In this document: positions 552 through 10,563 of the stretch, piece by piece | Layout of the letters: the number at the start of each line of letters is the position of its first letter | How positions within the stretch are numbered: position 1 is the first letter of the stretch | Source of the DNA: a virus | DNA: 11,933 nt | Direction: 5' to 3' (one strand) | UHGV virus genome: UHGV-0293518 | The notes under the pieces: generated by a model | The model's database searches: none | What the model was told of the DNA's origin: nothing | What the model saw: only the letters and a program-made list of their open reading frames with translations | Position numbers and translations under genes: made by a program

Positions 552-1046
552 ATGGATCGAGAGTTAAAAAATCTGACGCTGAATATCAGTCAACTGGCGG
601 CACTGTCAGGTGTACATCGCCAGACTGCTGCGGCAAGGCTGCAAAATCTACCCGTTGCAGGGGGGCATGAAAGCAACCTCAAGCTTTATCGGGTGGTTGA
701 TATTGTGTCGGCATTTCTGGCATTGCCACCGCCGGTTGCAGAAGGCGAAATGGACGCGCATGAGCGCAAAGCCTGGTATCAGTCTGAACGTGAGCGTCTT
801 AAGTTCGAACAGGAAACGGCACAACTCATTCCGGCCAGTGATGTCAGACGGGAGTTTGCCATCTGGGCAAAAGCGGTCGTGCAGGTGCTGGAGACATTAC
901 CGGATATTCTGGAACGTGACTGCGGTCTGCAGCCTGCCGCTGTGAGCCGTGTTCAGTCCATTATTGATGATCTGCGCGATCAGATAGCCCTGCGGGTGAC
1001 TGAAGCAGGTGCGGATGATGAGGAGGAATTACAGCAGGAGGAGTAA
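552..1046 (+). CDS. Terminase small subunit (DNA-packaging protein, not the lambda Nu1 sequence family)
   Basis: 164-aa ORF directly upstream of and overlapping (TAATG) the large terminase gene. GGAG lies 6-9 nt before the ATG. Has an N-terminal helix-turn-helix-like segment (LNISQLAALSGVHRQTAAARL) and an acidic C-terminal tail (DDEEELQQEE). Assignment is by position and architecture. Confidence 0.75.
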   Translation: MDRELKNLTLNISQLAALSGVHRQTAAARLQNLPVAGGHESNLKLYRVVDIVSAFLALPPPVAEGEMDAHERKAWYQSERERLKFEQETAQLIPASDVRREFAIWAKAVVQVLETLPDILERDCGLQPAAVSRVQSIIDDLRDQIALRVTEAGADDEEELQQEE

Positions 1047-3154
1047 TGCTGAATCAGGAAACCGCAAAGGCAGCACGAACCGATTCAGGTTATATCCTTC
1101 GCGCACCGAGACGAATGCGGGTTGCTGATGCCGTTGCTCAGTATATGCGGGTGCCCATGGGGGCAGGGAACTCAGTCCCGTGGGATCCGCTGGTGGCACC
1201 GTATGTTATTGAGCCGATGAACTGCCTGGCCTCGCGTGAATACGACGCAGTGATATTTGTTGGCCCGGCACGAACCGGCAAGACTATCGGCCTGATTGAC
1301 GGCTGGGTGATTTACAACGTGATTTGCGATCCTGCTGATATGCTGATTATTCAGATGACGGAGGAAAAAGCCCGCGAACACTCCAAAAAACGACTCGCCA
1401 GAACGTTTCGCGTCAGCCCGGAAGTGGTCAGTCGCCTGAGTCCGAACAAAAATGACAACAACGTTTATGACAGAACATTCCTTGCTGGTAACTACCTGAA
1501 AATCGGCTGGCCGTCAGTCAATATCATGTCCTCATCAGATTATAAATGCGTCGCGCTGACGGATTATGACCGTTTTCCGGAAGATATTGATGGCGAGGGG
1601 GATGCTTTCTCTCTTGCCTCAAAACGTACCACAACATTTATGTCCAGTGGTATGACGCTGGTGGAGAGTTCCCCCGGCAGAGATGTGAAGGATGTGAAAT
1701 GGCGACGGACTTCACCGCATGAGGCTCCACCAACCACGGGGATACTGTCGCTCTATAACCGTGGCGATCGCCGTCGCTGGTACTGGCCCTGTCCACACTG
1801 TGGTGAGTATTTTCAGCCCTGCGGCGATGTGGTTGCTGGTTTCCGTGATATTGCCGATCCCGTGCTGGCAAGTGAGGCGGCTTATATTCAGTGTCCTTCC
1901 TGTTCAGGACGGATTATGCCTGAACAAAAACGTGAGCTGAACGGACGTGGGGTCTGGTTGCGGGATGGTGAATCCATCAATGCGGATGGCAGTCGTTATG
2001 GTGATCCCCGACGCTCACGTATTGCGTCATTCTGGATGGAGGGTCCGGCAGCTGCTTACCAGACACTCTCGCAACTCGTTTACAAACTGCTTACTGCAGA
2101 ACAGGAATACGAGACAACCGGAAGTGAAGAAACACTCAAGACGGTTATCAATACCGACTGGGGATTACCTTATCTTCCCCGCGCCAGCATGGAGCAACGA
2201 AAAAGTGAACTGCTTGAGCAGCGGGCAGAGCCAGTTCCTTCCCGCAGTGTGCCGGATGGCGTTAATTTTCTTGTGGCGACAGTGGATGTGCAGGCGGGAC
2301 GTCATCGCCGTTTTGTGGTTCAGGTAACGGGCTATGGCAGCCGTGGCGAACGCTGGATTATTGATCGTTACAACATCACGCAGTCATTGCGCGGTGACAG
2401 CGACGGGGAGAGCCAGCGAATTGATCCGGCCAGCTATCCGGAAGACTGGGATGTCCTGCTGACGGATGTTTTTCATAAAAGCTGGCCGCTGGCCTCCGAT
2501 CCTTCTCAACAAATGCGACTGATGGCAATGGCGGTGGACTCCGGCGGTGAAGACGGGGTCACTGATAATGCCTATAAATTCTGGCGTCGTTGCCGTCGTG
2601 ATGGCCTTGGTAAACGTATTTACCTGTTTAAGGGCGACAGCATCCGGCGCGCAAAACTGATCACCCGTACATTCCCTGATAACACCGGACGAACGGGCCG
2701 ACGGGCGCAGGCCGCAGGTGATGTGCCGCTCTGGCTTCTTCAGACGGATGCACTGAAAGACCGGGTGAATAACGCGTTATGGCGTGACTCGCCAGGTCCC
2801 GGCTATGTGCATTTCCCTGACTGGCTGGGGAGCTGGTTTTACGACGAACTGACGTATGAAGAGCGGAGCAGTGACGGGAAATGGAGTAAGCCGGGTCGCG
2901 GTGCCAACGAAGCTTTTGACCTGATGGTGTATGCCGAGGCTCTGGTCATTCTGCATGGATACGAAAAGATCCGCTGGCCGGATGCACCGGAGTGGGCGAG
3001 CCGGGAAACCTGGCTGGAGTGTGTCCCGGACAGTATCGAACCGTCACCCTCACCCTCACCGGAACCGGTATCCACGCCTGTTAAAAAACAAAAACGGAAG
3101 AAAACAGTAACTGACGATGTTAACCCCTGGCTGACTTCCGGAGGATGGTTATGA
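1046..3154 (+). CDS. A: Terminase large subunit, gpA family
   Basis: 702-aa ORF. Walker A P-loop GPARTGKT at 1262-1285. CPHC...CPSC zinc-ribbon-like motif at 1790-1906, analogous to lambda gpA CPHC. Start overlaps the small terminase stop and the stop overlaps the next gene start (ATGA). Confidence 0.9.
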   Translation: MLNQETAKAARTDSGYILRAPRRMRVADAVAQYMRVPMGAGNSVPWDPLVAPYVIEPMNCLASREYDAVIFVGPARTGKTIGLIDGWVIYNVICDPADMLIIQMTEEKAREHSKKRLARTFRVSPEVVSRLSPNKNDNNVYDRTFLAGNYLKIGWPSVNIMSSSDYKCVALTDYDRFPEDIDGEGDAFSLASKRTTTFMSSGMTLVESSPGRDVKDVKWRRTSPHEAPPTTGILSLYNRGDRRRWYWPCPHCGEYFQPCGDVVAGFRDIADPVLASEAAYIQCPSCSGRIMPEQKRELNGRGVWLRDGESINADGSRYGDPRRSRIASFWMEGPAAAYQTLSQLVYKLLTAEQEYETTGSEETLKTVINTDWGLPYLPRASMEQRKSELLEQRAEPVPSRSVPDGVNFLVATVDVQAGRHRRFVVQVTGYGSRGERWIIDRYNITQSLRGDSDGESQRIDPASYPEDWDVLLTDVFHKSWPLASDPSQQMRLMAMAVDSGGEDGVTDNAYKFWRRCRRDGLGKRIYLFKGDSIRRAKLITRTFPDNTGRTGRRAQAAGDVPLWLLQTDALKDRVNNALWRDSPGPGYVHFPDWLGSWFYDELTYEERSSDGKWSKPGRGANEAFDLMVYAEALVILHGYEKIRWPDAPEWASRETWLECVPDSIEPSPSPSPEPVSTPVKKQKRKKTVTDDVNPWLTSGGWL

Positions 3155-3363: not shown

Positions 3364-4871
3364 TGGCAATTCTTGATGATGTGATTGGCGTTTTTTCACC
3401 AGGATGGAAAGCGGCAAGGCTGCGTTCCCGTGCGGTGATCCAGGCTTATGAGGCCGTAAAAACGACGCGGACACACAAAGCCCGGCGGGAGAACCGAACT
3501 GCCGACCAGTTAAGCCAGTACGGGGCCGTGTCGTTACGTGAGCAGGCCCGTTACCTTGATAACAACCACGATCTGGTTATTGGTGTATTTGACAAGCTGG
3601 AAGAACGGGTGGTGGGGAAAAACGGGATTATTGTCGAGCCACATCCGGTATTACGCAATGGGGCCATTGCCCGTGATCTGGCAGCGGAGATTCGCACCCG
3701 ATGGAGTGAATGGTCTGTCAGCCCGGAAGTCACCGGGCAGTTTACCCGTCCGATGCTGGAACGTCTGATGCTGCGTACCTGGCTGCGCGATGGTGAGGTG
3801 TTTGCCCAGATGGTTTCCGGGCGCATAAACAGCCTGACGCCTTCTGCCGGTGTTCATTTCTGGCTGGAGGCGCTCGAGCCGGACTTTATTCCCATGACCA
3901 GTGATGAGAGCAACAGGCTGAATCAGGGCGTGTTTGTTGATGACTGGGGGCGTCCCGAAAAATATCTGGTGTATAAAAGCCGTCCCGTATCCGGACGGCA
4001 GATGGAAACCAAAGAAGTGGATGCAGAGCGAATGCTGCATCTTAAATTTGTTCGCCGTCTGCACCAGATGCGCGGGACGTCTTTGTTGTCCGGTGTGCTG
4101 ATCCGCCTCAGTGCCCTGAAAGATTATGAAGATTATGAGCTGACTGCAGCAAGGATCGCCGCTGCTCTGGGGATGTACATCCGCAAAGGCGACGGGCAGA
4201 GCTATGAACCGGATGGTAATGGCAGCAAGGATAAGGAACGCGAGCTTACCATTCAGCCAGGCATTATTTACGATGATCTGAAACCCGGCGAAGAAATCGG
4301 AATGGTGAAGTCGGATCGCCCCAATCCTAACCTTGAAACTTTTCGTAATGGTCAGTTGCGTGCCGTGGCGGCGGGCAGTCGTCTGAGTTTTTCCAGTACA
4401 GCGCGCAACTATAACGGCACTTACAGCGCCCAGCGTCAGGAGCTGGTTGAATCTACTGATGGCTACCTGATCCTGCAGGACTGGTTTATTGGTGCCGTCA
4501 CCCGCCCGATGTATCGTGCATGGCTGAAACAGGCTGTGGCATCCGGTGTTATCAGGCTACCCCGCGATCTTGACCGTTCTTCACTGTATACCGCGGTGTA
4601 TTCCGGACCAGTGATGCCGTGGATTGACCCTGTTAAGGAGGCTGAGGCCTGGAAAATCCAGATTCGTGGTGGAGCGGCGACAGAATCAGACTGGGTACGT
4701 GCTGGTGGTCGTAATCCGGATGATGTCAAACGTCGGCGCAAGGCCGAAATTGATGAAAACCGCAAGCTGGATCTGGTATTTGATACCGATCCGGCCAGTG
4801 ATAAAGGAGGCAGTAGTGCCGCAACGAAACGACAGGAGCCGCAGCACACCGACGACCAGTCCGAAGATTAA
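3363..4871 (+). CDS. B: Portal protein, lambda gpB-like
   Basis: 502-aa ORF in the portal position after W. Start taken at ATG 3363 (MAILDDVIG...), which overlaps the W stop as TGATG and has GAGG upstream. The ORF-track start at 3291 is an in-frame upstream ATG inside W. Confidence 0.85.
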   Translation: MAILDDVIGVFSPGWKAARLRSRAVIQAYEAVKTTRTHKARRENRTADQLSQYGAVSLREQARYLDNNHDLVIGVFDKLEERVVGKNGIIVEPHPVLRNGAIARDLAAEIRTRWSEWSVSPEVTGQFTRPMLERLMLRTWLRDGEVFAQMVSGRINSLTPSAGVHFWLEALEPDFIPMTSDESNRLNQGVFVDDWGRPEKYLVYKSRPVSGRQMETKEVDAERMLHLKFVRRLHQMRGTSLLSGVLIRLSALKDYEDYELTAARIAAALGMYIRKGDGQSYEPDGNGSKDKERELTIQPGIIYDDLKPGEEIGMVKSDRPNPNLETFRNGQLRAVAAGSRLSFSSTARNYNGTYSAQRQELVESTDGYLILQDWFIGAVTRPMYRAWLKQAVASGVIRLPRDLDRSSLYTAVYSGPVMPWIDPVKEAEAWKIQIRGGAATESDWVRAGGRNPDDVKRRRKAEIDENRKLDLVFDTDPASDKGGSSAATKRQEPQHTDDQSED

Positions 4872-4884
4872 TTCCTGGTTCAGG

Positions 4885-5697
4885 ATGCAGGCTGGTCACC
4901 AGAGTGACGCGGATATTTATATTTATGACGAGATTGGTTTCTGGGGTGTTACAGCGAAGCAGTTTATCAGTGATCTGAATGCACTGGGCGATATCACCCA
5001 CATTAATCTCCATATCAATTCACCGGGTGGCGATGTCTTTGAAGGCATCGCCATTTTTAATGCGCTGAAAACACATGGTGCGTCCATTACCGTTTATGTC
5101 GACGGTGTGGCGGCGTCAATGGCGTCGGTCATTGCGATGGTGGGAAATCTGAACAGCCTTGATACCCGTATGGTGCCACAGGCCAGCGCATGGGCGATAA
5201 ACCGTGTGGCACAGAAAGCGGTCTCGGTTGCCACCCGGCAGGTTGCCGGGAATACCGTTGCGGGAGATAACCAGGTGAAAGGGATACCCCTGAAACTGGT
5301 ACGTCAGCGTGTCCGGGTGTTTAAAGCCAGTCCGTCAGGAAAAATGACGGCCAGGATCCGCGTTAACCGGGGCAATCTGCCTGCCATTAAGCTGGGGACC
5401 GCCCGGGTCAGACTGACCCGGCGTGGTGGAAAACTGCAGTACCGTGGCAGCGTGCTGAAGGTGGGTAAATATCTTTTCCGGGATGCGTTTATTCAGCAAC
5501 TGGCGAATGGTCGCTGGCATGTGATGCGGCGTATTGATGGCAAAAATCGTTACCCCATTGATGTGGTGAAAATCCCTCTGTCCGGACCGCTGACACAGGC
5601 ATTTGAAGATGCCCGCGACCGCATCATTGCTGCGGAAATGCCGAAACAGCTGGGGTATGCACTGAAACAACAACTGAGGTTATGGCTGACCCGATGA
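4885..5697 (+). CDS. Chimeric ORF: N-terminal fragment of ClpP-like prohead protease fused in frame to a gpZ-like tail completion protein (deletion remnant, probably non-functional as a protease)
   Basis: Residues 1-87 carry ClpP/S14-type prohead protease motifs (IYIYDEIG, INSPGGDVFEGIAIFNAL, GVAASMASVIAMVG). From about nt 5146 the sequence (NLNSLDTRMVPQASAWAINRV ... RIRVNRGNLPAIKLGTARV ... QQLANGRWHVMRRIDGKNRYPIDVVKIP ... LGYALKQQLRLW) follows lambda gpZ as I recall it. Ends with ATGA overlap onto U, as Z/U do in lambda. Start chosen at ATG 4885 just after the portal stop. Confidence 0.65.
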   Translation: MQAGHQSDADIYIYDEIGFWGVTAKQFISDLNALGDITHINLHINSPGGDVFEGIAIFNALKTHGASITVYVDGVAASMASVIAMVGNLNSLDTRMVPQASAWAINRVAQKAVSVATRQVAGNTVAGDNQVKGIPLKLVRQRVRVFKASPSGKMTARIRVNRGNLPAIKLGTARVRLTRRGGKLQYRGSVLKVGKYLFRDAFIQQLANGRWHVMRRIDGKNRYPIDVVKIPLSGPLTQAFEDARDRIIAAEMPKQLGYALKQQLRLWLTR

Positions 5698-6095
5698 ACC
5701 GACATACACAAATCCGCCAGGTCGTACTGGCACGCCTTCGGGAACAGTGTGGAGACAGCGCCACGTTTTTTGACGGGCTTCCGGCATTTGTTGATGCGCA
5801 GGAACTGCCTGCCGTGGCGGTGTGGCTGAGTGATGCTCAGTACACCGGAAAAATGACGGATGAAGATGACTGGCAGGCTGTTCTGCATATTGCTGTCTTC
5901 ATCCGGGCACAGGCACCGGATTCAGAGCTGGATATGTGGATGGAGAGCACCATTTTCCCGGCCCTGAATGATGTACCGGCACTTTCCGGACTCATCGACA
6001 CCCTGATCCCACTCGGTTTTAACTATCAACGTGATAATGAGATGGCCACCTGGGCGATGGCGGAAATCACGTACCAGATCACGTACACGAATTAA
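5694..6095 (+). CDS. U: Tail tube terminator protein, lambda gpU-like
   Basis: Strong similarity to lambda gpU as recalled (ATFFDG, ELPAVAV, DWQAVLHIAVF, DSELDMWMES, ALSGLI, ITYQITY). Start at ATG 5694 overlaps the preceding stop and matches the lambda N-terminus (MNRHTQIRQVVL vs MKHTELRAAVL). An alternative upstream ATG exists at 5682. Confidence 0.85.
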   Translation: MNRHTQIRQVVLARLREQCGDSATFFDGLPAFVDAQELPAVAVWLSDAQYTGKMTDEDDWQAVLHIAVFIRAQAPDSELDMWMESTIFPALNDVPALSGLIDTLIPLGFNYQRDNEMATWAMAEITYQITYTN

Positions 6096-6105
6096 GGAGG
6101 TGGCA

Positions 6106-6849
6106 ATGACCACACCAAATCCACTGGCAAAAACGAAAGGTGCGGGAACGACGTTCTGGATGTACACCGGCAAGGGCGATGCGTTTGCGAACCCTTTATC
6201 GGACACTGACTGGCTGCGTCTTGCGATGGTGAAGGATCTGCAGCCTGGCGAAATGACCGCTGATGCAGAAGATGACACTTATCTCGATGATGAAGATGCA
6301 GACTGGAAAACGACAACCCAGGGGCAGAAATCCGTCGGTGATACTTCGGCGACGCTGGCCTGGCGTCCGGGTGACAGCGGGCAGAAAAAACTGGTTCAGT
6401 TGTTCGACTCCGGTGAAGTCTGCGCGTTTCGTATCAAATATCCCAACGGTACTGTTGATGTTTTCCGTGGCTGGCTGAGTTCACTGGGTAAAACCATTGC
6501 CTCAAAAGACGTGATGACCCGCACAGTGAAAATCAGCGGTGTGGGGCGTCCGTATCTGGCAGAAGAAGGCACTGAAACCGTGGGCGTTACCGGGCTGACG
6601 GTGGCACCGGCATCTGCCAGTGTAAAAGTGGGAGCAACCACCACGCTGACCTTTACAGTAAAACCTGACGGAGCCAGTGACAAAGCGATCAGTGTGCATT
6701 CGACAGATCCACAGACTGCCACGGTGACCCTGAACGGGCTTGTGGCCACGGTGAAAGGCGTGAAGCAGGGCAGTGTCAGCATTGTGGGCATGACTTCTGA
6801 CGGCGATTTTGTGGCAGTGGCTACGGTGGCTGTCAGCGCCGCAGGTTAA
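6106..6849 (+). CDS. V: Major tail tube protein, lambda gpV-like, with C-terminal Ig-like (Big_2-type) domain
   Basis: N-terminal region is close to lambda gpV as recalled (KGAGTT, ANPLSD, YLDDEDADW, QGQKS, GDTS, TLAW, PNGTVDVFRGW, RTVK, VGRP). The C-terminal ~90 aa are Thr/Val/Ser-rich, typical of the Ig-like decoration domain. AGGAGG lies 6 nt before ATG 6106. Confidence 0.9.
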   Translation: MTTPNPLAKTKGAGTTFWMYTGKGDAFANPLSDTDWLRLAMVKDLQPGEMTADAEDDTYLDDEDADWKTTTQGQKSVGDTSATLAWRPGDSGQKKLVQLFDSGEVCAFRIKYPNGTVDVFRGWLSSLGKTIASKDVMTRTVKISGVGRPYLAEEGTETVGVTGLTVAPASASVKVGATTTLTFTVKPDGASDKAISVHSTDPQTATVTLNGLVATVKGVKQGSVSIVGMTSDGDFVAVATVAVSAAG

Positions 6850-6869
6850 CAGGACGATACTCATCATTT

Positions 6870-6893
6870 GCCCCGATTATCCGGGGCTTTTTT
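6870..6893 (+). terminator. Intrinsic-terminator-like hairpin between V and G (GCCCCG-ATTATC-CGGGGC followed by TTTTTT)
   Basis: Read directly: 6-bp GC-rich stem 6870-6875 / 6882-6887, 6-nt loop, U-run 6888-6893, about 20 nt after the V stop. Could attenuate transcription after the abundant major tail protein. Confidence 0.5.
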
Positions 6894-6906
6894 GCAGGTG
6901 GAGAAC

Positions 6907-7296
6907 ATGATGTTTCTGAAACAGGGCACGTTTAATTATGAAAAGCAGTCCGTGGTGCTCAGTGAGCTGTCCGGGCTGCAGAGAATTGAATATCTGGCGT
7001 TTGTTCAGCAGCGAACGGCAAAGTTTGATGCCGAAGAGGGAGAACTGCCGGAGGCTGAACGACAGATTGCTTTTCTGCGGATGGGGATGGATATCAATGC
7101 CTGGCTGGTTTCCCGCTCACTGTGGAATGCGGATCAGTCTAAGGATGTAGAGACGCTTTGCGCATCCGTTATTACAACATGGTCGTATGATGCCCTGGGT
7201 GCGGGGGCGGAGATGGTTCTGTCGCTGAGCGGTATGGGGACCATTGATAATGCCGGGGATGATGAGCATGAGGCGCTGACGCCGGAAAAGTCCTGA
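6907..7296 (+). CDS. G: Tail assembly chaperone, lambda gpG-like
   Basis: MFLK...LSELSGLQRIEYLAF...TTW...LSGM parallels lambda gpG as recalled. Start at ATG 6907 (or 6910) has a GGTGGAG Shine-Dalgarno upstream. The ORF-track start at 6868 lies inside the terminator hairpin and is unlikely. Confidence 0.85.
   Translation: MMFLKQGTFNYEKQSVVLSELSGLQRIEYLAFVQQRTAKFDAEEGELPEAERQIAFLRMGMDINAWLVSRSLWNADQSKDVETLCASVITTWSYDALGAGAEMVLSLSGMGTIDNAGDDEHEALTPEKS
7284..7290 (+). promoter_or_regulatory. Candidate -1 programmed ribosomal frameshift site for G-T fusion (GGAAAAG)
   Basis: The T reading frame is -1 relative to G and is open only from 7272. G stops at 7294-7296, so the shift must occur within 7272-7293. 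The only slippery-like sequence there is G GAA AAG (the lambda site is G GGA AAG), where the A-site Lys codon AAG can re-pair with AAA. Confidence 0.5.
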
Positions 7297-7634
7297 CGCG
7301 GGAAATGCAGTTTGTCATGCGGCTTGCCCGGGAGTTCCGGCGGGCAGACTGGCGGCGGATGCTGTCGGAAATGTCGGCCACTGAGCTTGGTGAGTGGGGC
7401 GATTATTTCCGGATGCAGAGCTTCAGTGATGTGTGGATGGATGCGCAGTTTGCCTCGCTGAAGGCATTGATCGTGAGAATGGTGTCCGGCAGTAGTGATG
7501 CTGCGGTGGCTGATTTCAGCCTTTTACCGGAAGAGAACGGGATACCGGAGCGAACGGACGAAGAACTGATGCATCTTGGGGAAGGTATTTCCGGAGGTGT
7601 GCGTTATGGACCAGATAGCCAACCTGGTCATTGA
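7290..7634 (+). CDS. T: Tail assembly protein gpT-like, expressed as a G-T fusion by -1 frameshift (T-frame portion)
   Basis: The -1 frame downstream of G encodes ...MRLAREFRRADWRRML...GEGISGGVRYGP, resembling lambda gpT as recalled (MRLAREFRRPDWRAML ... GIAGGVRYG). There is no convincing independent start or Shine-Dalgarno, which fits frameshift-dependent expression as in lambda. The 3' end overlaps the H start. Confidence 0.7.
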   Translation, partial: VLTREMQFVMRLAREFRRADWRRMLSEMSATELGEWGDYFRMQSFSDVWMDAQFASLKALIVRMVSGSSDAAVADFSLLPEENGIPERTDEELMHLGEGISGGVRYGPDSQPGH

Positions 7635-10563
7635 TTTGGGGATTGATGCGGCAGAGTTTAAAAATGAAATCCCCCGTATCAAAAACCTTCTGAATGGTGC
7701 AGCCAGCGATGCAGAACGGTCTTCTGCCCGTATGCAGCGTTTTATGGAGCGTCAGACTCAGGCCGCCCGGCAGACAACGCAGGCGGCTTCTTCGGCTGCA
7801 ACAGCCGCATCCGTCCATGCGCAGACGGTGGAGAAGAACGCACAGGCTCATGAACGCATGGCCCGCGAGGTGGAGAAAACCCGCCAGCGCATGGAGGCGC
7901 TGAGCCAGAAAATGCGCGAGGAACAGGCGCAGGCCATGGCTCTGGCGGAGGCTCAGGATAAAGCAGCTGCTGCGTTTTATCGTCAGATTGACAGTGTGAA
8001 ACAGGCCAGTGCGGGGCTGCAGGAATTACAGCGTATTCAGCAGCAGATCCGACAGGCCAGAAACAGTGGCGGGATTGGTCAGCAGGATTATCTGGCGCTG
8101 ATTTCTGAGGTTACGGCGAAAACCCGTGTTCTTACGCAGGCTGAGGAAGAGTCTACCCGACAGAAAGTGGCGTTTATCCGTCAGCTTAAAGAGCAGGCAA
8201 CCCGCCAGAATCTTTCTTCTTCTGAGTTGCTTCGTGCCAGGGCTGCCCAGCTGGGGGTAAGCAGTGCTGCAGAAGTGTATATCCGCAAAATGGAGCAGGC
8301 AGGAAAAGCCACGCATTCGCTGGGTCTGAAAAGTGCAGCAGCCCGCCAGGAGATAGGCGTTCTGATAGGTGAACTGGCCCGTGGCAATTTAGGAGCGCTG
8401 AGGGGATCCGGGATAACGCTGGCTAACCGTGCCGGATGGATAGACACACTGATGTCACCGAAAGGCATGATGCTGGGCGGGGTTATTGGCGGTATTGCCG
8501 CGGCCGTCTATGGTCTGGGTAAAGCCTGGTATGACGGTCAGAAGGAGGGGGAAGAATTTAACCGCCAGCTGTCACTGACGGGGCATTATGCCGGAGTCAC
8601 TGCCGGGCAGCTGTGGACGCTCAGTCGTGCTATTTCCGGGAATGGTATCACGCAACATGCTGCAGCCGGTGCGCTGGCTCAGGTGGTGGGGAGTGGTGCA
8701 TTTCGTGGAAACGATATCGGTATGGTGGCGAGAGCTGCCGCACAGATGGAGCGATCGGTTGGCCAGTCGGTCAGCGATACCATAAATCAGTTTAAGCGGC
8801 TGAAGGATGATCCTGTAAATGCCGCGAAGGCTCTGGACAATGAGCTGCATTTTCTTACTGCCACTCAGCTTGAGCAGATACGCGTCCTTGGGGATCAGGG
8901 GCGGTCCAGTGATGCTGCACGGATAGCCATGTCTGCACTGGCAGAGGAAACCGGTCGGCGTACTGCGGATATTGATAATAACCTCAATGCGCTGGGCAGT
9001 ACGCTGAAGTATCTGTCTGATTTATGGAGTCGTTTCTGGGATGCGGCCATGAATATTGGTCGTGAAGACTCGCTGGATGAACAGATTGCCGCTTTACAGG
9101 AGAAAGTGTCGCGGGCGAAAAGACTCCCCTGGACGGCATCATCTTCTCAGGTTGAATACGATCAGCAGCGTCTTAACGATCTTCAGGAGAAAAAACGCCA
9201 GAAGGATTTGCAGGATGCAAAAGAGCAGGCAGAGCGGAATTATCAGGAGCAACAGAAACGCCGTAATGCTGAAAATGCTGCACTGAACCGGATGAATGAA
9301 ACGGAAGCTGCACGACATCAGCGTGAAATTGCGCGTATTAATGCCATGCAGTACGCCGATCAGGCTGTCAGGGATGCGGCGATACAACGTGAAAATGAAC
9401 GTTACGAGAAAGCCCTGGCATCCGGTAAGAAAAAAACACGCGAAACCCGTAATGATGAGGCCACCCGGTTATTGCTGCAGTACAGTCAGCAACAGGCACA
9501 GGTGGAAGGACAGATTGCTGCTGCCAGACAGTCAGCAGGCATTGCCACGGAAAGGATGACAGAAGCGCATAAACAGCTTCTGGCTCTGCAGCAGCGCATC
9601 AGCGACCTGGACGGGAAAAAACTGACGGCAGATGAAAAGAGTGTGCTGGCCCGTAAAGATGAACTGATTCAGGCACTGACGCTGCTGGATGTAAAACAGC
9701 AGGAGCTTCAGAAACAGACGGCACTCAACGAGCTGAAGAAAAAAACAATTCAGCTGACCAGTCAACTGGCTGAAGAAGAGCGCGCTCAGCGTCAGCAACA
9801 TGACCTGGATATCGCCACGGTGGGTATGGGTGATCAGCAGCGACAGCGATATCAGGTACAACTGAGTCTTCGCCAGAAATACCAGCAACAGCTGGAGCAG
9901 TTGAGGCGGGATAGTGAGCAGAAAGGGACATATAACACGGATGACTACAGAAAGGCCGAGCAGGCGCTGACGGAGAGCCTGAACCGACAACTGAATGAGA
10001 ATCGCCGTTACTGGCAACAGCTTGAAGTTGTGCAGGGTAACTGGAAAAACGGAGTCCTGCGTGCATTTCAGGATTTTACCGTGGATGCAGATAATACGGC
10101 AGAAACAGCAGAACAGGTGTTCTCGTCAGCCTTCAGCAACATGGGAAATGGCCTGGCAACTTTTGTCACTACCGGCAAACTCAATTTCAAATCCTTCACC
10201 TCTTCTGTGCTGTCAGATATGGCGAAAATCCTGGCGCAGGCAACCATGATGAAATCGATAAAAGGGATTGGCAGTGTATCAGAGCCGAAAGTGGTGACAG
10301 TGAAGCTGGGCGATGGTTATGAACAGCGTCGTGCGGCGGGACTGAATAACCAGTTGTCGACTTACAGCGTGACGATACGTGTTCGTAAATGTGAACACCC
10401 ATCTTTAAAAGCCTTTCTGGAACGGCACGGTGGCGTCCGTGCATTTCAGTGGACGCCACCTTATGACTGGAAACCGATCAGGGTGGTTTGTCGTAAATGG
10501 TCGGCAAGCGTGGGGGCGCTGTGGGTAACCATAACGGCAGATTTTGAACAGGTCGTGGCATAG
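7606..10563 (+). CDS. H: Tape measure protein (gpH-like) fused in frame to the C-terminal ~95 aa of minor tail protein gpM-like (H-M chimeric ORF)
   Basis: N-terminus MDQIANLVIDLGIDAAEF parallels lambda gpH (MAEPVGDLVVDLSLDAARF) as recalled. The body is a long Q/A/E/R-rich coiled-coil-like region with a Gly-rich hydrophobic patch (MMLGGVIGGIAAAVYGLGKAWYDG). From about nt 10276 the sequence (VSEPKVVTVKLGDGYEQRRAAGLNNQLSTYSVT...FLERHGGVRAFQWTPPYDWKPIRVVCRKWS...ADFEQVVA) follows lambda gpM. GGAGGTG lies 8 nt before ATG 7606. No separate M gene exists before L. Confidence 0.8.
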   Translation: MDQIANLVIDLGIDAAEFKNEIPRIKNLLNGAASDAERSSARMQRFMERQTQAARQTTQAASSAATAASVHAQTVEKNAQAHERMAREVEKTRQRMEALSQKMREEQAQAMALAEAQDKAAAAFYRQIDSVKQASAGLQELQRIQQQIRQARNSGGIGQQDYLALISEVTAKTRVLTQAEEESTRQKVAFIRQLKEQATRQNLSSSELLRARAAQLGVSSAAEVYIRKMEQAGKATHSLGLKSAAARQEIGVLIGELARGNLGALRGSGITLANRAGWIDTLMSPKGMMLGGVIGGIAAAVYGLGKAWYDGQKEGEEFNRQLSLTGHYAGVTAGQLWTLSRAISGNGITQHAAAGALAQVVGSGAFRGNDIGMVARAAAQMERSVGQSVSDTINQFKRLKDDPVNAAKALDNELHFLTATQLEQIRVLGDQGRSSDAARIAMSALAEETGRRTADIDNNLNALGSTLKYLSDLWSRFWDAAMNIGREDSLDEQIAALQEKVSRAKRLPWTASSSQVEYDQQRLNDLQEKKRQKDLQDAKEQAERNYQEQQKRRNAENAALNRMNETEAARHQREIARINAMQYADQAVRDAAIQRENERYEKALASGKKKTRETRNDEATRLLLQYSQQQAQVEGQIAAARQSAGIATERMTEAHKQLLALQQRISDLDGKKLTADEKSVLARKDELIQALTLLDVKQQELQKQTALNELKKKTIQLTSQLAEEERAQRQQHDLDIATVGMGDQQRQRYQVQLSLRQKYQQQLEQLRRDSEQKGTYNTDDYRKAEQALTESLNRQLNENRRYWQQLEVVQGNWKNGVLRAFQDFTVDADNTAETAEQVFSSAFSNMGNGLATFVTTGKLNFKSFTSSVLSDMAKILAQATMMKSIKGIGSVSEPKVVTVKLGDGYEQRRAAGLNNQLSTYSVTIRVRKCEHPSLKAFLERHGGVRAFQWTPPYDWKPIRVVCRKWSASVGALWVTITADFEQVVA

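What the first reader, a model, noticed from the sequence alone, without database searches (positions are those of the whole stretch)
7272..7296. G-T programmed -1 frameshift with a non-canonical slippery heptamer
The frame relationship (T is -1 relative to G) and the 22-nt overlap window are read directly from the sequence. The only slippery-like sequence in that window is GGAAAAG rather than the lambda GGGAAAG. The A-site Lys slip (AAG to AAA) is retained but the P-site re-pairing would involve a middle-position mismatch, which may change frameshift efficiency and the G:GT ratio.
Basis: partly seen in the sequence, partly recalled or inferred. Interest (0 to 1): 0.5.

Follow-up and report, generated by a model that had tools for sequence, protein, structure and literature searches.

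The report
Phage tail-chaperone G-T frameshift site
This is the ribosomal -1 frameshift site that lets a lambda-like prophage make a little G-T fusion protein alongside its tail-assembly chaperone G; the slippery sequence GGAAAAG differs by one base from lambda's, but it is the common, strictly conserved form in this gene family and is already annotated as such in phage N15, so it is real but ordinary.

Summary
G (6907/6910-7296, Pfam Phage_TAC_2) ends at TGA 7294-7296. The T frame (Phage_tail_T) is -1 to G and opens at 7272. The only slip-prone motif in the 22-nt overlap is G_GAA_AAG at 7284-7290.

It sits at exactly the position of lambda's G_GGA_AAG, one G-to-A change away. The predicted junction ...TPEK|VLTREMQF aligns without gaps to lambda's ...SAGK|VFDGELSF.

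The heptamer is invariant in 21 lineages down to about 35% protein identity. These include E. coli, Salmonella, Citrobacter, Proteus and Providencia prophages and phages N15, phi80, HK225, mEp213, mEp237 and Gifsy-2. Its flanks vary, and three of its positions are synonymous sites. T-frame residues are conserved from the codon right after the slip, while the first T-frame ATG wanders from +2 to +23 codons. An independent T start is therefore excluded.

The N15 GenBank record already labels GGAAAAG as the "slippery sequence for -1 translational frameshift", and Gifsy-2's T is annotated as part of a frameshift hybrid. The variant is therefore known. Only the annotation of this phage group (cdtI/mEp460, and NCBI's PGAP pipeline) misses it.

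I found no downstream stimulatory structure. A weak SD-like GAGG 10 nt upstream is suggestive only. Efficiency is untested.

The parts
6870..6893 (+). Rho-independent terminator-like hairpin (GCCCCG/CGGGGC stem followed by T6) between the major tail gene V and G.
   Evidence: Read. The equivalent feature is annotated as a terminator in mEp460, Ayreon and N15.
6907..7296 (+). Gene G, tail assembly chaperone, 129 aa from ATG 6907. ATG 6910, the start PGAP uses, gives 128 aa. The RBS AGGTGGAG is at 6896-6903.
   Evidence: Pfam PF06894 Phage_TAC_2, E=6e-40. Translation. PGAP annotation of a 99.6% identical prophage.
7269..7271 (+). Last stop codon (TGA) in the -1 (T) frame. It sets the 5' limit of the region where a shift can be productive.
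   Evidence: Translation of the -1 frame.
7270..7273 (+). SD-like GAGG, 10 nt upstream of the heptamer. A possible weak stimulator; this is inferred, not shown.
   Evidence: An SD-like 4-mer lies 9-13 nt upstream in 9 of 11 stop-proximal lineages against 1 of 7 lambda/N15-type lineages. The predicted anti-SD pairing is only -5.8 kcal/mol, the 30th percentile of background.
7284..7290 (+). Slippery heptamer G_GAA_AAG. The P-site GAA (Glu) re-pairs to GGA and the A-site AAG (Lys) re-pairs to AAA.
   Evidence: It sits at the position homologous to lambda G_GGA_AAG. It is invariant in all 21 GGAAAAG lineages examined. The same heptamer is annotated as the slippery sequence in N15.
7294..7296 (+). 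G stop codon TGA, one codon after the heptamer.
   Evidence: The stop-proximal architecture is shared with Gifsy-2 and with Salmonella and Citrobacter prophages.
7290..7634 (+). T segment read in the -1 frame from GTC 7290 to the stop at 7632-7634. The predicted GT fusion is join(6907..7290,7290..7634), 242 aa.
   Evidence: Pfam PF06223 Phage_tail_T, E=5e-15. T-frame residues are conserved from the first codon after the slip. tblastn of the 242-aa fusion covers 100% in cdtI and mEp460 and 99% in Gifsy-2.
7305..7307 (+). The ATG used as the T start in the mEp460 GenBank record and by PGAP. It is not conserved and is probably not a real start.
   Evidence: In relatives the first T-frame ATG lies at +2, +5, +8, +9, +15 or +23 codons after the slip. 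The only SD-like bases (GGGA 7300-7303) are 1 nt from this ATG.
7606..10563 (+). Tape measure gene H, downstream partner of G/GT, overlapping the end of T by 29 nt. In this window its 3' end is fused to gpM by a deletion.
   Evidence: Pfam TMP_2, TMP_4 and Tape_meas_lam_C, plus Phage_min_tail at aa 890-984. Comparison with the intact prophage L193.

Best explanation
Most ribosomes translating G read CCG GAA AAG TCC and stop at TGA 7294, making the chaperone gpG. A small fraction slip back one base on G_GAA_AAG (7284-7290). In that slip tRNA-Lys moves from AAG to its cognate AAA. tRNA-Glu moves from GAA to GGA, keeping first- and third-position pairs with a G-U opposition in the middle. Those ribosomes then read GTC CTG ACG... 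in the T frame and make a 242-aa G-T fusion. By homology with lambda, the G part binds the tape measure protein and the T part recruits the major tail protein, so tail assembly needs much gpG and little gpGT. What is shown here: the frames, the site's homology to lambda's, nucleotide-level conservation of the heptamer, and translation of T from the slip site. What is inferred: the slip itself, its efficiency and the protein roles. No protein product has been observed for this phage.
For: 1. G and T are Pfam Phage_TAC_2 and Phage_tail_T, and they lie between the major tail and tape measure genes.
2. The heptamer aligns base for base with lambda's. Lambda reads GCG GGA AAG T.. and the window reads CCG GAA AAG T... 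The junctions K|VF.. and K|VL.. align without gaps.
3. In 16 lineages the seven heptamer columns are the only run of invariant columns in a 43-nt span. They include the third positions of three codons, although the residue before Glu varies (Pro, Ala or Leu). Five further lineages agree.
4. The T-frame sequence [VA]xxxExxF..LAREF.R.DWR is conserved from the codon after the slip. The first T-frame ATG ranges from +2 to +23 codons.
5. The N15 record marks GGAAAAG as the 'slippery sequence for -1 translational frameshift'. Gifsy-2's T is annotated as part of a frameshift hybrid and has the same heptamer.
6. A_AAG is the most shift-prone tetramer in E. coli (PMC4066793). G_GA is a documented substitute for X_XX in other frameshift sites (PMC5009743).
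Against: There is no direct evidence of the fusion protein for this phage or its close relatives. In a reconstituted E. coli system, G GAA AAG without stimulators gave mainly 0-frame product and was used as the 'less slippery' comparison (PMC6924986). No significant downstream structure is predicted (z +0.38 and +0.53). The upstream SD-like GAGG is weak. So how a useful shift rate is reached is unexplained. This copy also sits in a prophage with two deletions in head and tail genes, so the site may no longer be in use here.
Confidence: 0.9

Rival explanations
1. T is a separate gene translated from its own start, ATG 7305, as written in the mEp460 GenBank record and by NCBI's PGAP. On this reading no frameshift is needed.
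For: The databases annotate it this way. An ATG exists at 7305, with GGGA just upstream.
Against: That ATG is Leu or Ile in relatives. The first T-frame ATG moves between +2 and +23 codons, in several phages lying after the conserved LAREF.R.DWR motif. T-frame residues between the slip and 7305 are conserved. The GGGA is 1 nt from the ATG, too close to serve as an SD. In lambda, T is made only as the GT fusion (Levin et al. 1993, as summarised in PMC5009743).
Confidence: 0.04
2. The shift is a single-tRNA event. Only tRNA-Lys slips on A_AAG (the NNA_AAG 'hexanucleotide' mode of IS3, IS1222 and B. subtilis cdd), either in the A site or in the P site while the A site waits. The two leading G's contribute nothing.
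For: A_AAG is the only invariant element shared by all three heptamer variants in the family: GGGAAAG, GGAAAAG and AAAAAAG. NNA_AAG frameshifting is documented (PMC5009743). In Proteus and Providencia the stop codon directly follows AAG, which would favour a P-site slip.
Against: The first heptamer base is the third position of a Pro, Ala or Leu codon, yet it is G in every lineage. That is expected only if the P-site tRNA re-pairs with it. A_AAG alone is at background without a strong pseudoknot (about 0.15%; PMC4066793), and no such structure is predicted here.
Confidence: 0.15
3. The frame change is made at the RNA or DNA level instead. The candidates are transcriptional slippage on the A4 run, a sequencing error, or a pseudogene.
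For: Rare database proteins join G and T in one frame (P0027, P0044).
Against: Identical frame relations and heptamer occur in hundreds of independent assemblies and isolated phages. Four A's are far shorter than known transcriptional slippage runs (established knowledge). The in-frame database fusions arise from larger internal deletions, not from a 1-nt change in the A run.
Confidence: 0.01

Closest known systems
Bacteriophage lambda G/GT programmed -1 frameshift (Levin, Hendrix and Casjens 1993; Xu, Hendrix and Duda 2004, as cited in PMC5009743)
   Same: The G and T domains are homologous (PF06894, PF06223). The gene order V-G-T-H is the same. The slip site is at the same alignment position, the A-site AAG Lys codon is the same, and the junction K|V is the same.
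   Different: The heptamer is G_GAA_AAG rather than G_GGA_AAG. The P-site tRNA is therefore tRNA-Glu with a middle-position mismatch, not tRNA-Gly with a wobble change. G stops 3 nt after the heptamer rather than 15 nt. GT identity to lambda is only about 35%.
Phage N15 genes 14/15, and the same arrangement in HK225, mEp237, phi80 and mEp213
   Same: The heptamer GGAAAAG is identical and sits at the homologous site. In the N15 GenBank record it is explicitly annotated 'slippery sequence for -1 translational frameshift'.
   Different: The N15 type keeps the lambda-like spacing, with the stop 15 nt downstream. It has no SD-like sequence 6-17 nt upstream. The proteins are about 36-40% identical to the window's.
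Salmonella phage Gifsy-2 STM1039 / STM1041.1n
   Same: It is the closest named phage outside the cdtI/mEp460 group, at 54% GT identity. It has the same ...T P E K S* ending, the same CCG GAA AAG TCC TGA, and the same GAGG 10 nt upstream. Its T is annotated as 'part of G+G' frameshift hybrid protein'.
   Different: The sequence differs elsewhere, and its first T-frame ATG is at +23 codons.
E. coli dnaX (A_AAA_AAG with an SD 10 nt upstream and a downstream hairpin) and the IS3-family / cdd NNA_AAG sites
   Same: All rely on the tRNA-Lys AAG-to-AAA slip. The window also has an SD-like GAGG at the dnaX-like 10-nt spacing (PMC6924986; PMC5009743).
   Different: There is no downstream hairpin or pseudoknot, the SD-like element is weak, and the genes are unrelated. 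This is a resemblance in how it works, not membership of the same family.

Membership tests
Lambda-type G/GT tail assembly chaperone frameshift | The upstream ORF is a gpG-family chaperone. | tested here: met
   PF06894, E=6e-40, covering residues 2-122 of 129.
Lambda-type G/GT tail assembly chaperone frameshift | The downstream ORF is a gpT domain in the -1 frame and overlaps the end of G. | tested here: met
   PF06223, E=5e-15. The -1 frame is open from 7272 and G's stop is at 7294.
Lambda-type G/GT tail assembly chaperone frameshift | The pair lies between the major tail protein gene and the tape measure gene. | tested here: met
   Phage_TTP_12 plus Big_2 at 6031-6849 and a tape measure protein from 7606. 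The same order appears in mEp460 and in PGAP annotation.
Lambda-type G/GT tail assembly chaperone frameshift | A slip-prone heptamer lies inside the overlap, conserved at nucleotide level and homologous in position to lambda's. | tested here: met
   G_GAA_AAG at 7284-7290 aligns with lambda G_GGA_AAG. It is invariant in 21 lineages, including synonymous sites.
Lambda-type G/GT tail assembly chaperone frameshift | T has no start of its own, and its reading frame is conserved from the slip site. | tested here: met
   The first T-frame ATG varies from +2 to +23 codons, and residues are conserved from +1.
Lambda-type G/GT tail assembly chaperone frameshift | A GT fusion protein is made at a few percent of gpG and is required for tail assembly. 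| not testable with these tools
   This needs a reporter assay, western blot or mass spectrometry. It has been shown for lambda only (PMC5009743; PMC3296357).
Canonical X_XXY_YYZ tandem-slippage heptamer | The first three bases are identical, so the P-site tRNA re-pairs with only a wobble change. | tested here: not met
   The bases are G, G, A. Moving from GAA to GGA gives a second-position mismatch (the same statement for this sequence is in PMC6924986).
NNA_AAG hexanucleotide / A_AAG single-tRNA frameshift sites (IS3, IS1222, cdd) | A_AAG is in the 0-frame phase. | tested here: met
   GAA AAG is in G's frame.
NNA_AAG hexanucleotide / A_AAG single-tRNA frameshift sites (IS3, IS1222, cdd) | The bases 5' of NNA are free to vary, because the P-site tRNA does not re-pair. 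| tested here: not met
   The base before GAA is G in 21 of 21 lineages although it is a synonymous position.
dnaX-type stimulated frameshift site | An SD-like sequence lies about 10 nt upstream and stimulates the shift. | tested here: inconclusive
   GAGG is at 7270-7273 with a 10-nt spacer, and the motif test is positive across the clade. By pairing energy, however, the window falls at the 30th percentile of background.
dnaX-type stimulated frameshift site | A stable hairpin or pseudoknot lies 5-9 nt downstream. | tested here: not met
   The folding energy of 7291-7340 and 7291-7360 is no better than shuffled sequence (z +0.38 and +0.53). Rfam gives no match.

The most novel reading that the evidence does not exclude
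The 'weak' heptamer G_GAA_AAG, not lambda's G_GGA_AAG, is the older and dominant state of the enterobacterial G-T site. In the branch containing this window it may work with two helpers that lambda lacks: an SD-like sequence about 10 nt upstream and a 0-frame stop codon 0-3 nt downstream. Both slipping tRNAs (Glu and Lys) carry the mnm5s2U34 modification. The G:GT ratio of these prophages would therefore depend even more strongly than lambda's on the host's tRNA thiolation state.
Probability: 0.25. Interest if true: 0.4.

Novelty: already known. Interest (0 to 1): 0.15.

Why it matters
Practically, it exposes an annotation gap. The cdtI/mEp460 phage records and PGAP's calls across many E. coli genomes list T as a free-standing gene starting at a non-conserved ATG. 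They should instead give a join(...) GT product with ribosomal slippage.

Scientifically, it is a reminder that lambda's textbook heptamer is the minority form in its own gene family. A sequence used in vitro as a 'poorly slippery' control is what most relatives rely on. Measuring its efficiency in vivo would show how much P-site mispairing a natural low-level frameshift tolerates.

Tried and rejected
1. Downstream stimulatory RNA. I folded 7291-7340, 7291-7360 and 7250-7360, plus the lambda, N15 and Gifsy-2 equivalents. None was better than shuffles except a weak N15 signal at z -1.6. The GC-rich hairpin around 7326-7346 is 35 nt from the site and lies in the conserved AREFRR coding stretch, so I did not count it as a stimulator.
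2. Rfam scan of 6800-7700 found nothing relevant.
3. Chance occurrence of the heptamer is not significant on its own, so I dropped it as an argument.
4. SD-like stimulator. The motif-position test looked strong but is inflated by shared ancestry and by a conserved Glu codon. The energy test did not single out the window. I kept it only as a hypothesis.
5. Database G-T in-frame fusion proteins (P0027, P0044) turned out to be internal-deletion variants. They are not evidence about slippage.
6. Literature. Licznar 2003, Xu 2004 and the N15 genome paper are not held in the library. Full-text searches for GGAAAAG with phage, tail and frameshift terms found no paper discussing this variant in G-T. 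The 64-variant dnaX study does not include G GAA AAG.
7. IMG/VR scans seeded with single proteins mostly returned near-identical copies. Diversity came from the genome scan, named phages and five targeted contig look-ups.

Full report
**What the window is.** Region 6850-7700 is 97.7-99.9% identical to 17 deposited E. coli phages of the cdtI/mEp460 group. The whole window matches prophages in 4,818 of 5,426 complete E. coli genomes.

Pfam assigns the following:
- 6031-6849: the lambda-type tail tube protein with a Big_2 domain.
- 6907-7296: Phage_TAC_2, lambda gpG (E=6e-40).
- The -1 frame 7272-7634: Phage_tail_T (E=5e-15).
- The ORF from 7606: a tape measure protein.

This is the lambda order V-G-T-H.

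**Checking the observation.** G's frame ends GCG CTG ACG CCG GAA AAG TCC TGA, with the stop at 7294-7296. The -1 frame has stops at 7245, 7248, 7260, 7263 and 7269, and is then open from 7272 to 7634.

Codon by codon, the only place where an A-site tRNA can re-pair one base back is A_AAG. With the preceding bases it forms G_GAA_AAG at 7284-7290. The predicted product reads ...TPEK|VLTREMQF..., 242 aa in total. The heptamer alone is not rare, with 3 copies in the window against 1.67 expected. The other plus-strand copy, at 8302, lies in the tape measure gene in the wrong phase (GGA AAA G). Occurrence by itself therefore proves nothing.

**Homology of the site with lambda.** In lambda the corresponding stretch is GCG GGA AAG TGT TCG..., and the T frame continues VFDGELSFALKLAREMGRPDWRAML. 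The window reads CCG GAA AAG TCC TGA..., and its T frame continues VLTREMQFVMRLAREFRRADWRRML. The two align without gaps from the Lys of the slip site. The window's heptamer is thus lambda's with one G-to-A change at position 3.

**Conservation.** I collected G-T loci from five sources:
- A species-level genome collection.
- IMG/VR viral contigs.
- Named phages.
- Five contig look-ups for divergent G proteins.
- The intact prophage L193.

GGAAAAG sits in the same phase and place in every one of these:
- E. coli cdtI/mEp460-type prophages.
- More distant E. coli types at 63-73% G identity.
- Three Salmonella prophage types and Gifsy-2.
- Citrobacter, Proteus, Providencia and Superficieibacter.
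- Phages N15, HK225, mEp237, phi80 and mEp213.

Across 16 such lineages the seven heptamer columns are 16/16 identical while nearly all flanking columns vary. Three of the seven are third codon positions. One is the base before GAA, which stays G although the residue there is Pro, Ala or Leu. E. coli uses GAA for 69% of Glu codons and AAG for 24% of Lys codons (PMC3296357). Unselected Glu-Lys would therefore be GAA-AAG only about one time in six. This is nucleotide-level selection, as expected of a recoding signal.

**T is not a separate gene.** The mEp460 GenBank record and PGAP start T at the ATG equivalent to 7305. Phage Ayreon's record starts it at a later codon. The 7305 ATG is Leu or Ile in relatives. 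The first T-frame ATG falls at +2, +5, +8, +9, +15 or +23 codons after the slip in different lineages. In Gifsy-2, Proteus, phi80 and others it lies beyond the conserved LAREF.R.DWR motif. T-frame residues are conserved from the very first codon after the slip ([VA]-x-x-x-E-x-x-F). The only SD-like bases near 7305 are 1 nt from the ATG.

**Already known.** The N15 GenBank record carries a misc_feature 'slippery sequence for -1 translational frameshift' at 10027-10033, and those bases are GGAAAAG. Gifsy-2's T homologue is annotated 'part of G+G' frameshift hybrid protein' and has CCG GAA AAG TCC TGA, exactly as in the window. HK225's is annotated 'tail assembly protein GT'.

A neighbour-joining tree of GT proteins places GGAAAAG on both deep branches. 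GGGAAAG (lambda, Stx2a phages, PhiR12_5) and A_AAA_AAG (an Stx1a phage) are confined to one sub-branch. Lambda's heptamer is thus the minority form, and the window carries the family's usual one.

**How it likely works.** The tRNA-Lys AAG-to-AAA slip is the most effective A-site slip in E. coli (PMC4066793). The P-site tRNA-Glu would go from GAA to GGA, keeping positions 1 and 3 with G opposite U in the middle. G_GA as a stand-in for X_XX is documented in other systems (PMC5009743). The invariance of heptamer position 1 at a synonymous site argues that P-site re-pairing matters, and so argues against a pure single-tRNA slip.

Against an efficient shift, Peng et al. used this exact sequence as the 'less slippery' comparison. 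They saw mainly 0-frame product in a purified system (PMC6924986). A_AAG alone is at background without a pseudoknot. Lambda needs only about 4% shifting (PMC3296357), so a weak site may be enough.

**Search for stimulators.** No downstream structure beats shuffled controls (z +0.38 and +0.53), and Rfam finds nothing.

The family splits into two architectures:
- **Stop-distal:** lambda, N15 and phi80 types have G's stop 15 nt after the heptamer.
- **Stop-proximal:** the window, Gifsy-2, Salmonella, Citrobacter (3 nt) and Proteus, Providencia, Ewingella (0 nt).

In the stop-proximal group, an SD-like 4-mer lies 9-13 nt upstream in 9 of 11 lineages, against 1 of 7 in the other group. It is encoded in different ways: GAG-G, G-GAG and CAG-GAA-G. 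In the window it is GAGG at 7270-7273 with a 10-nt spacer, the dnaX spacing. However, the lineages share ancestry and a conserved Glu codon. By pairing energy the window's element (-5.8 kcal/mol) is only at the 30th percentile of background positions. I treat it as a hypothesis with roughly a one-in-four chance of being functional.

**Context caveat.** Compared with an intact, 99.6% identical prophage (L193), the window lacks two segments:
- 2,412 bp, running from inside the ClpP-protease/capsid fusion gene into a tail gene.
- 434 bp, covering the end of the tape measure gene and the start of gpM.

Both deletions leave in-frame fusions. This copy cannot build particles on its own, so the G-T site here is intact but possibly idle.

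**Verdict.** The observation and the interpretation stand. The feature is a conserved, previously annotated variant of the lambda G-T frameshift site. What is missing is only the correct annotation in this phage group and any measurement of its efficiency.

Noticed in passing
window 5146/5147 and 10277/10278: Relative to an intact 99.6% identical prophage (L193), the window lacks 2,412 bp and 434 bp. The first loss runs from the ClpP-protease/major capsid fusion gene into a gpZ-like tail gene. The second covers the tape measure 3' end and the gpM 5' end. Both junctions leave in-frame fusion ORFs (4624-5697 and 7576-10563), with 2-3 nt of overlap at the breakpoints. No complete E. coli genome holds the first junction in one contiguous piece. 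For the second, the hits listed were all split into two pieces spanning the 434-bp gap. This is either a defective prophage or an assembly artefact.
   Followed up: partly
window 7305-7634, and the equivalent in NC_019716 and NZ_CP100927: The mEp460 GenBank record and PGAP annotate T as a stand-alone CDS from a non-conserved ATG, with no ribosomal-slippage join. Phage Ayreon's record starts T at a later codon, also with no join. The same gap probably affects many E. coli genome annotations.
   Followed up: yes
L201 (Stx1a phage Stx1_9793), L017 (Ewingella americana), L012-L016 and L197 (Proteus, Providencia): Other heptamers occupy the homologous site. The Stx1a phage has A_AAA_AAG. Ewingella has CTG GCA AAA TAG, which is A_AAA next to a stop. 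Proteus and Providencia have GGAAAAG immediately followed by TAG, a 'shifty stop' arrangement.
   Followed up: partly
window 7270-7273 and the equivalent positions in L098, L103, L104, L194, L204-L208: An SD-like element (GAGG, GGAGG, AGGAG or AGGUGA) lies about 10-14 nt upstream of the heptamer in the branch where G stops 0-3 nt after the site. It is absent from lambda, N15 and phi80 types. It is encoded through different codon combinations in different lineages.
   Followed up: partly
window 6870-6893: A terminator-like hairpin with a T6 run lies between the major tail gene and G. It is also annotated in mEp460, Ayreon and N15, and could lower G/T/H expression relative to the tail tube protein.
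   Followed up: no
window 8302-8308: A second plus-strand GGAAAAG lies inside the tape measure gene. It is phased GGA AAA G, so it is not a slip site, and it serves as an internal control.
   Followed up: yes
window 1046-3154: The large terminase ORF is 6 nt (2 codons) longer than in the intact relative L193 (702 aa against 700 aa).
   Followed up: no
proteins P0027 and P0044; H100 and H101: Rare database entries join G and T in one frame through internal deletions. Separately, two other E. coli genomes show a ClpP gene next to gpU, a different deletion with a similar left breakpoint. Repeated decay of this head-tail region in prophages seems likely.
   Followed up: no
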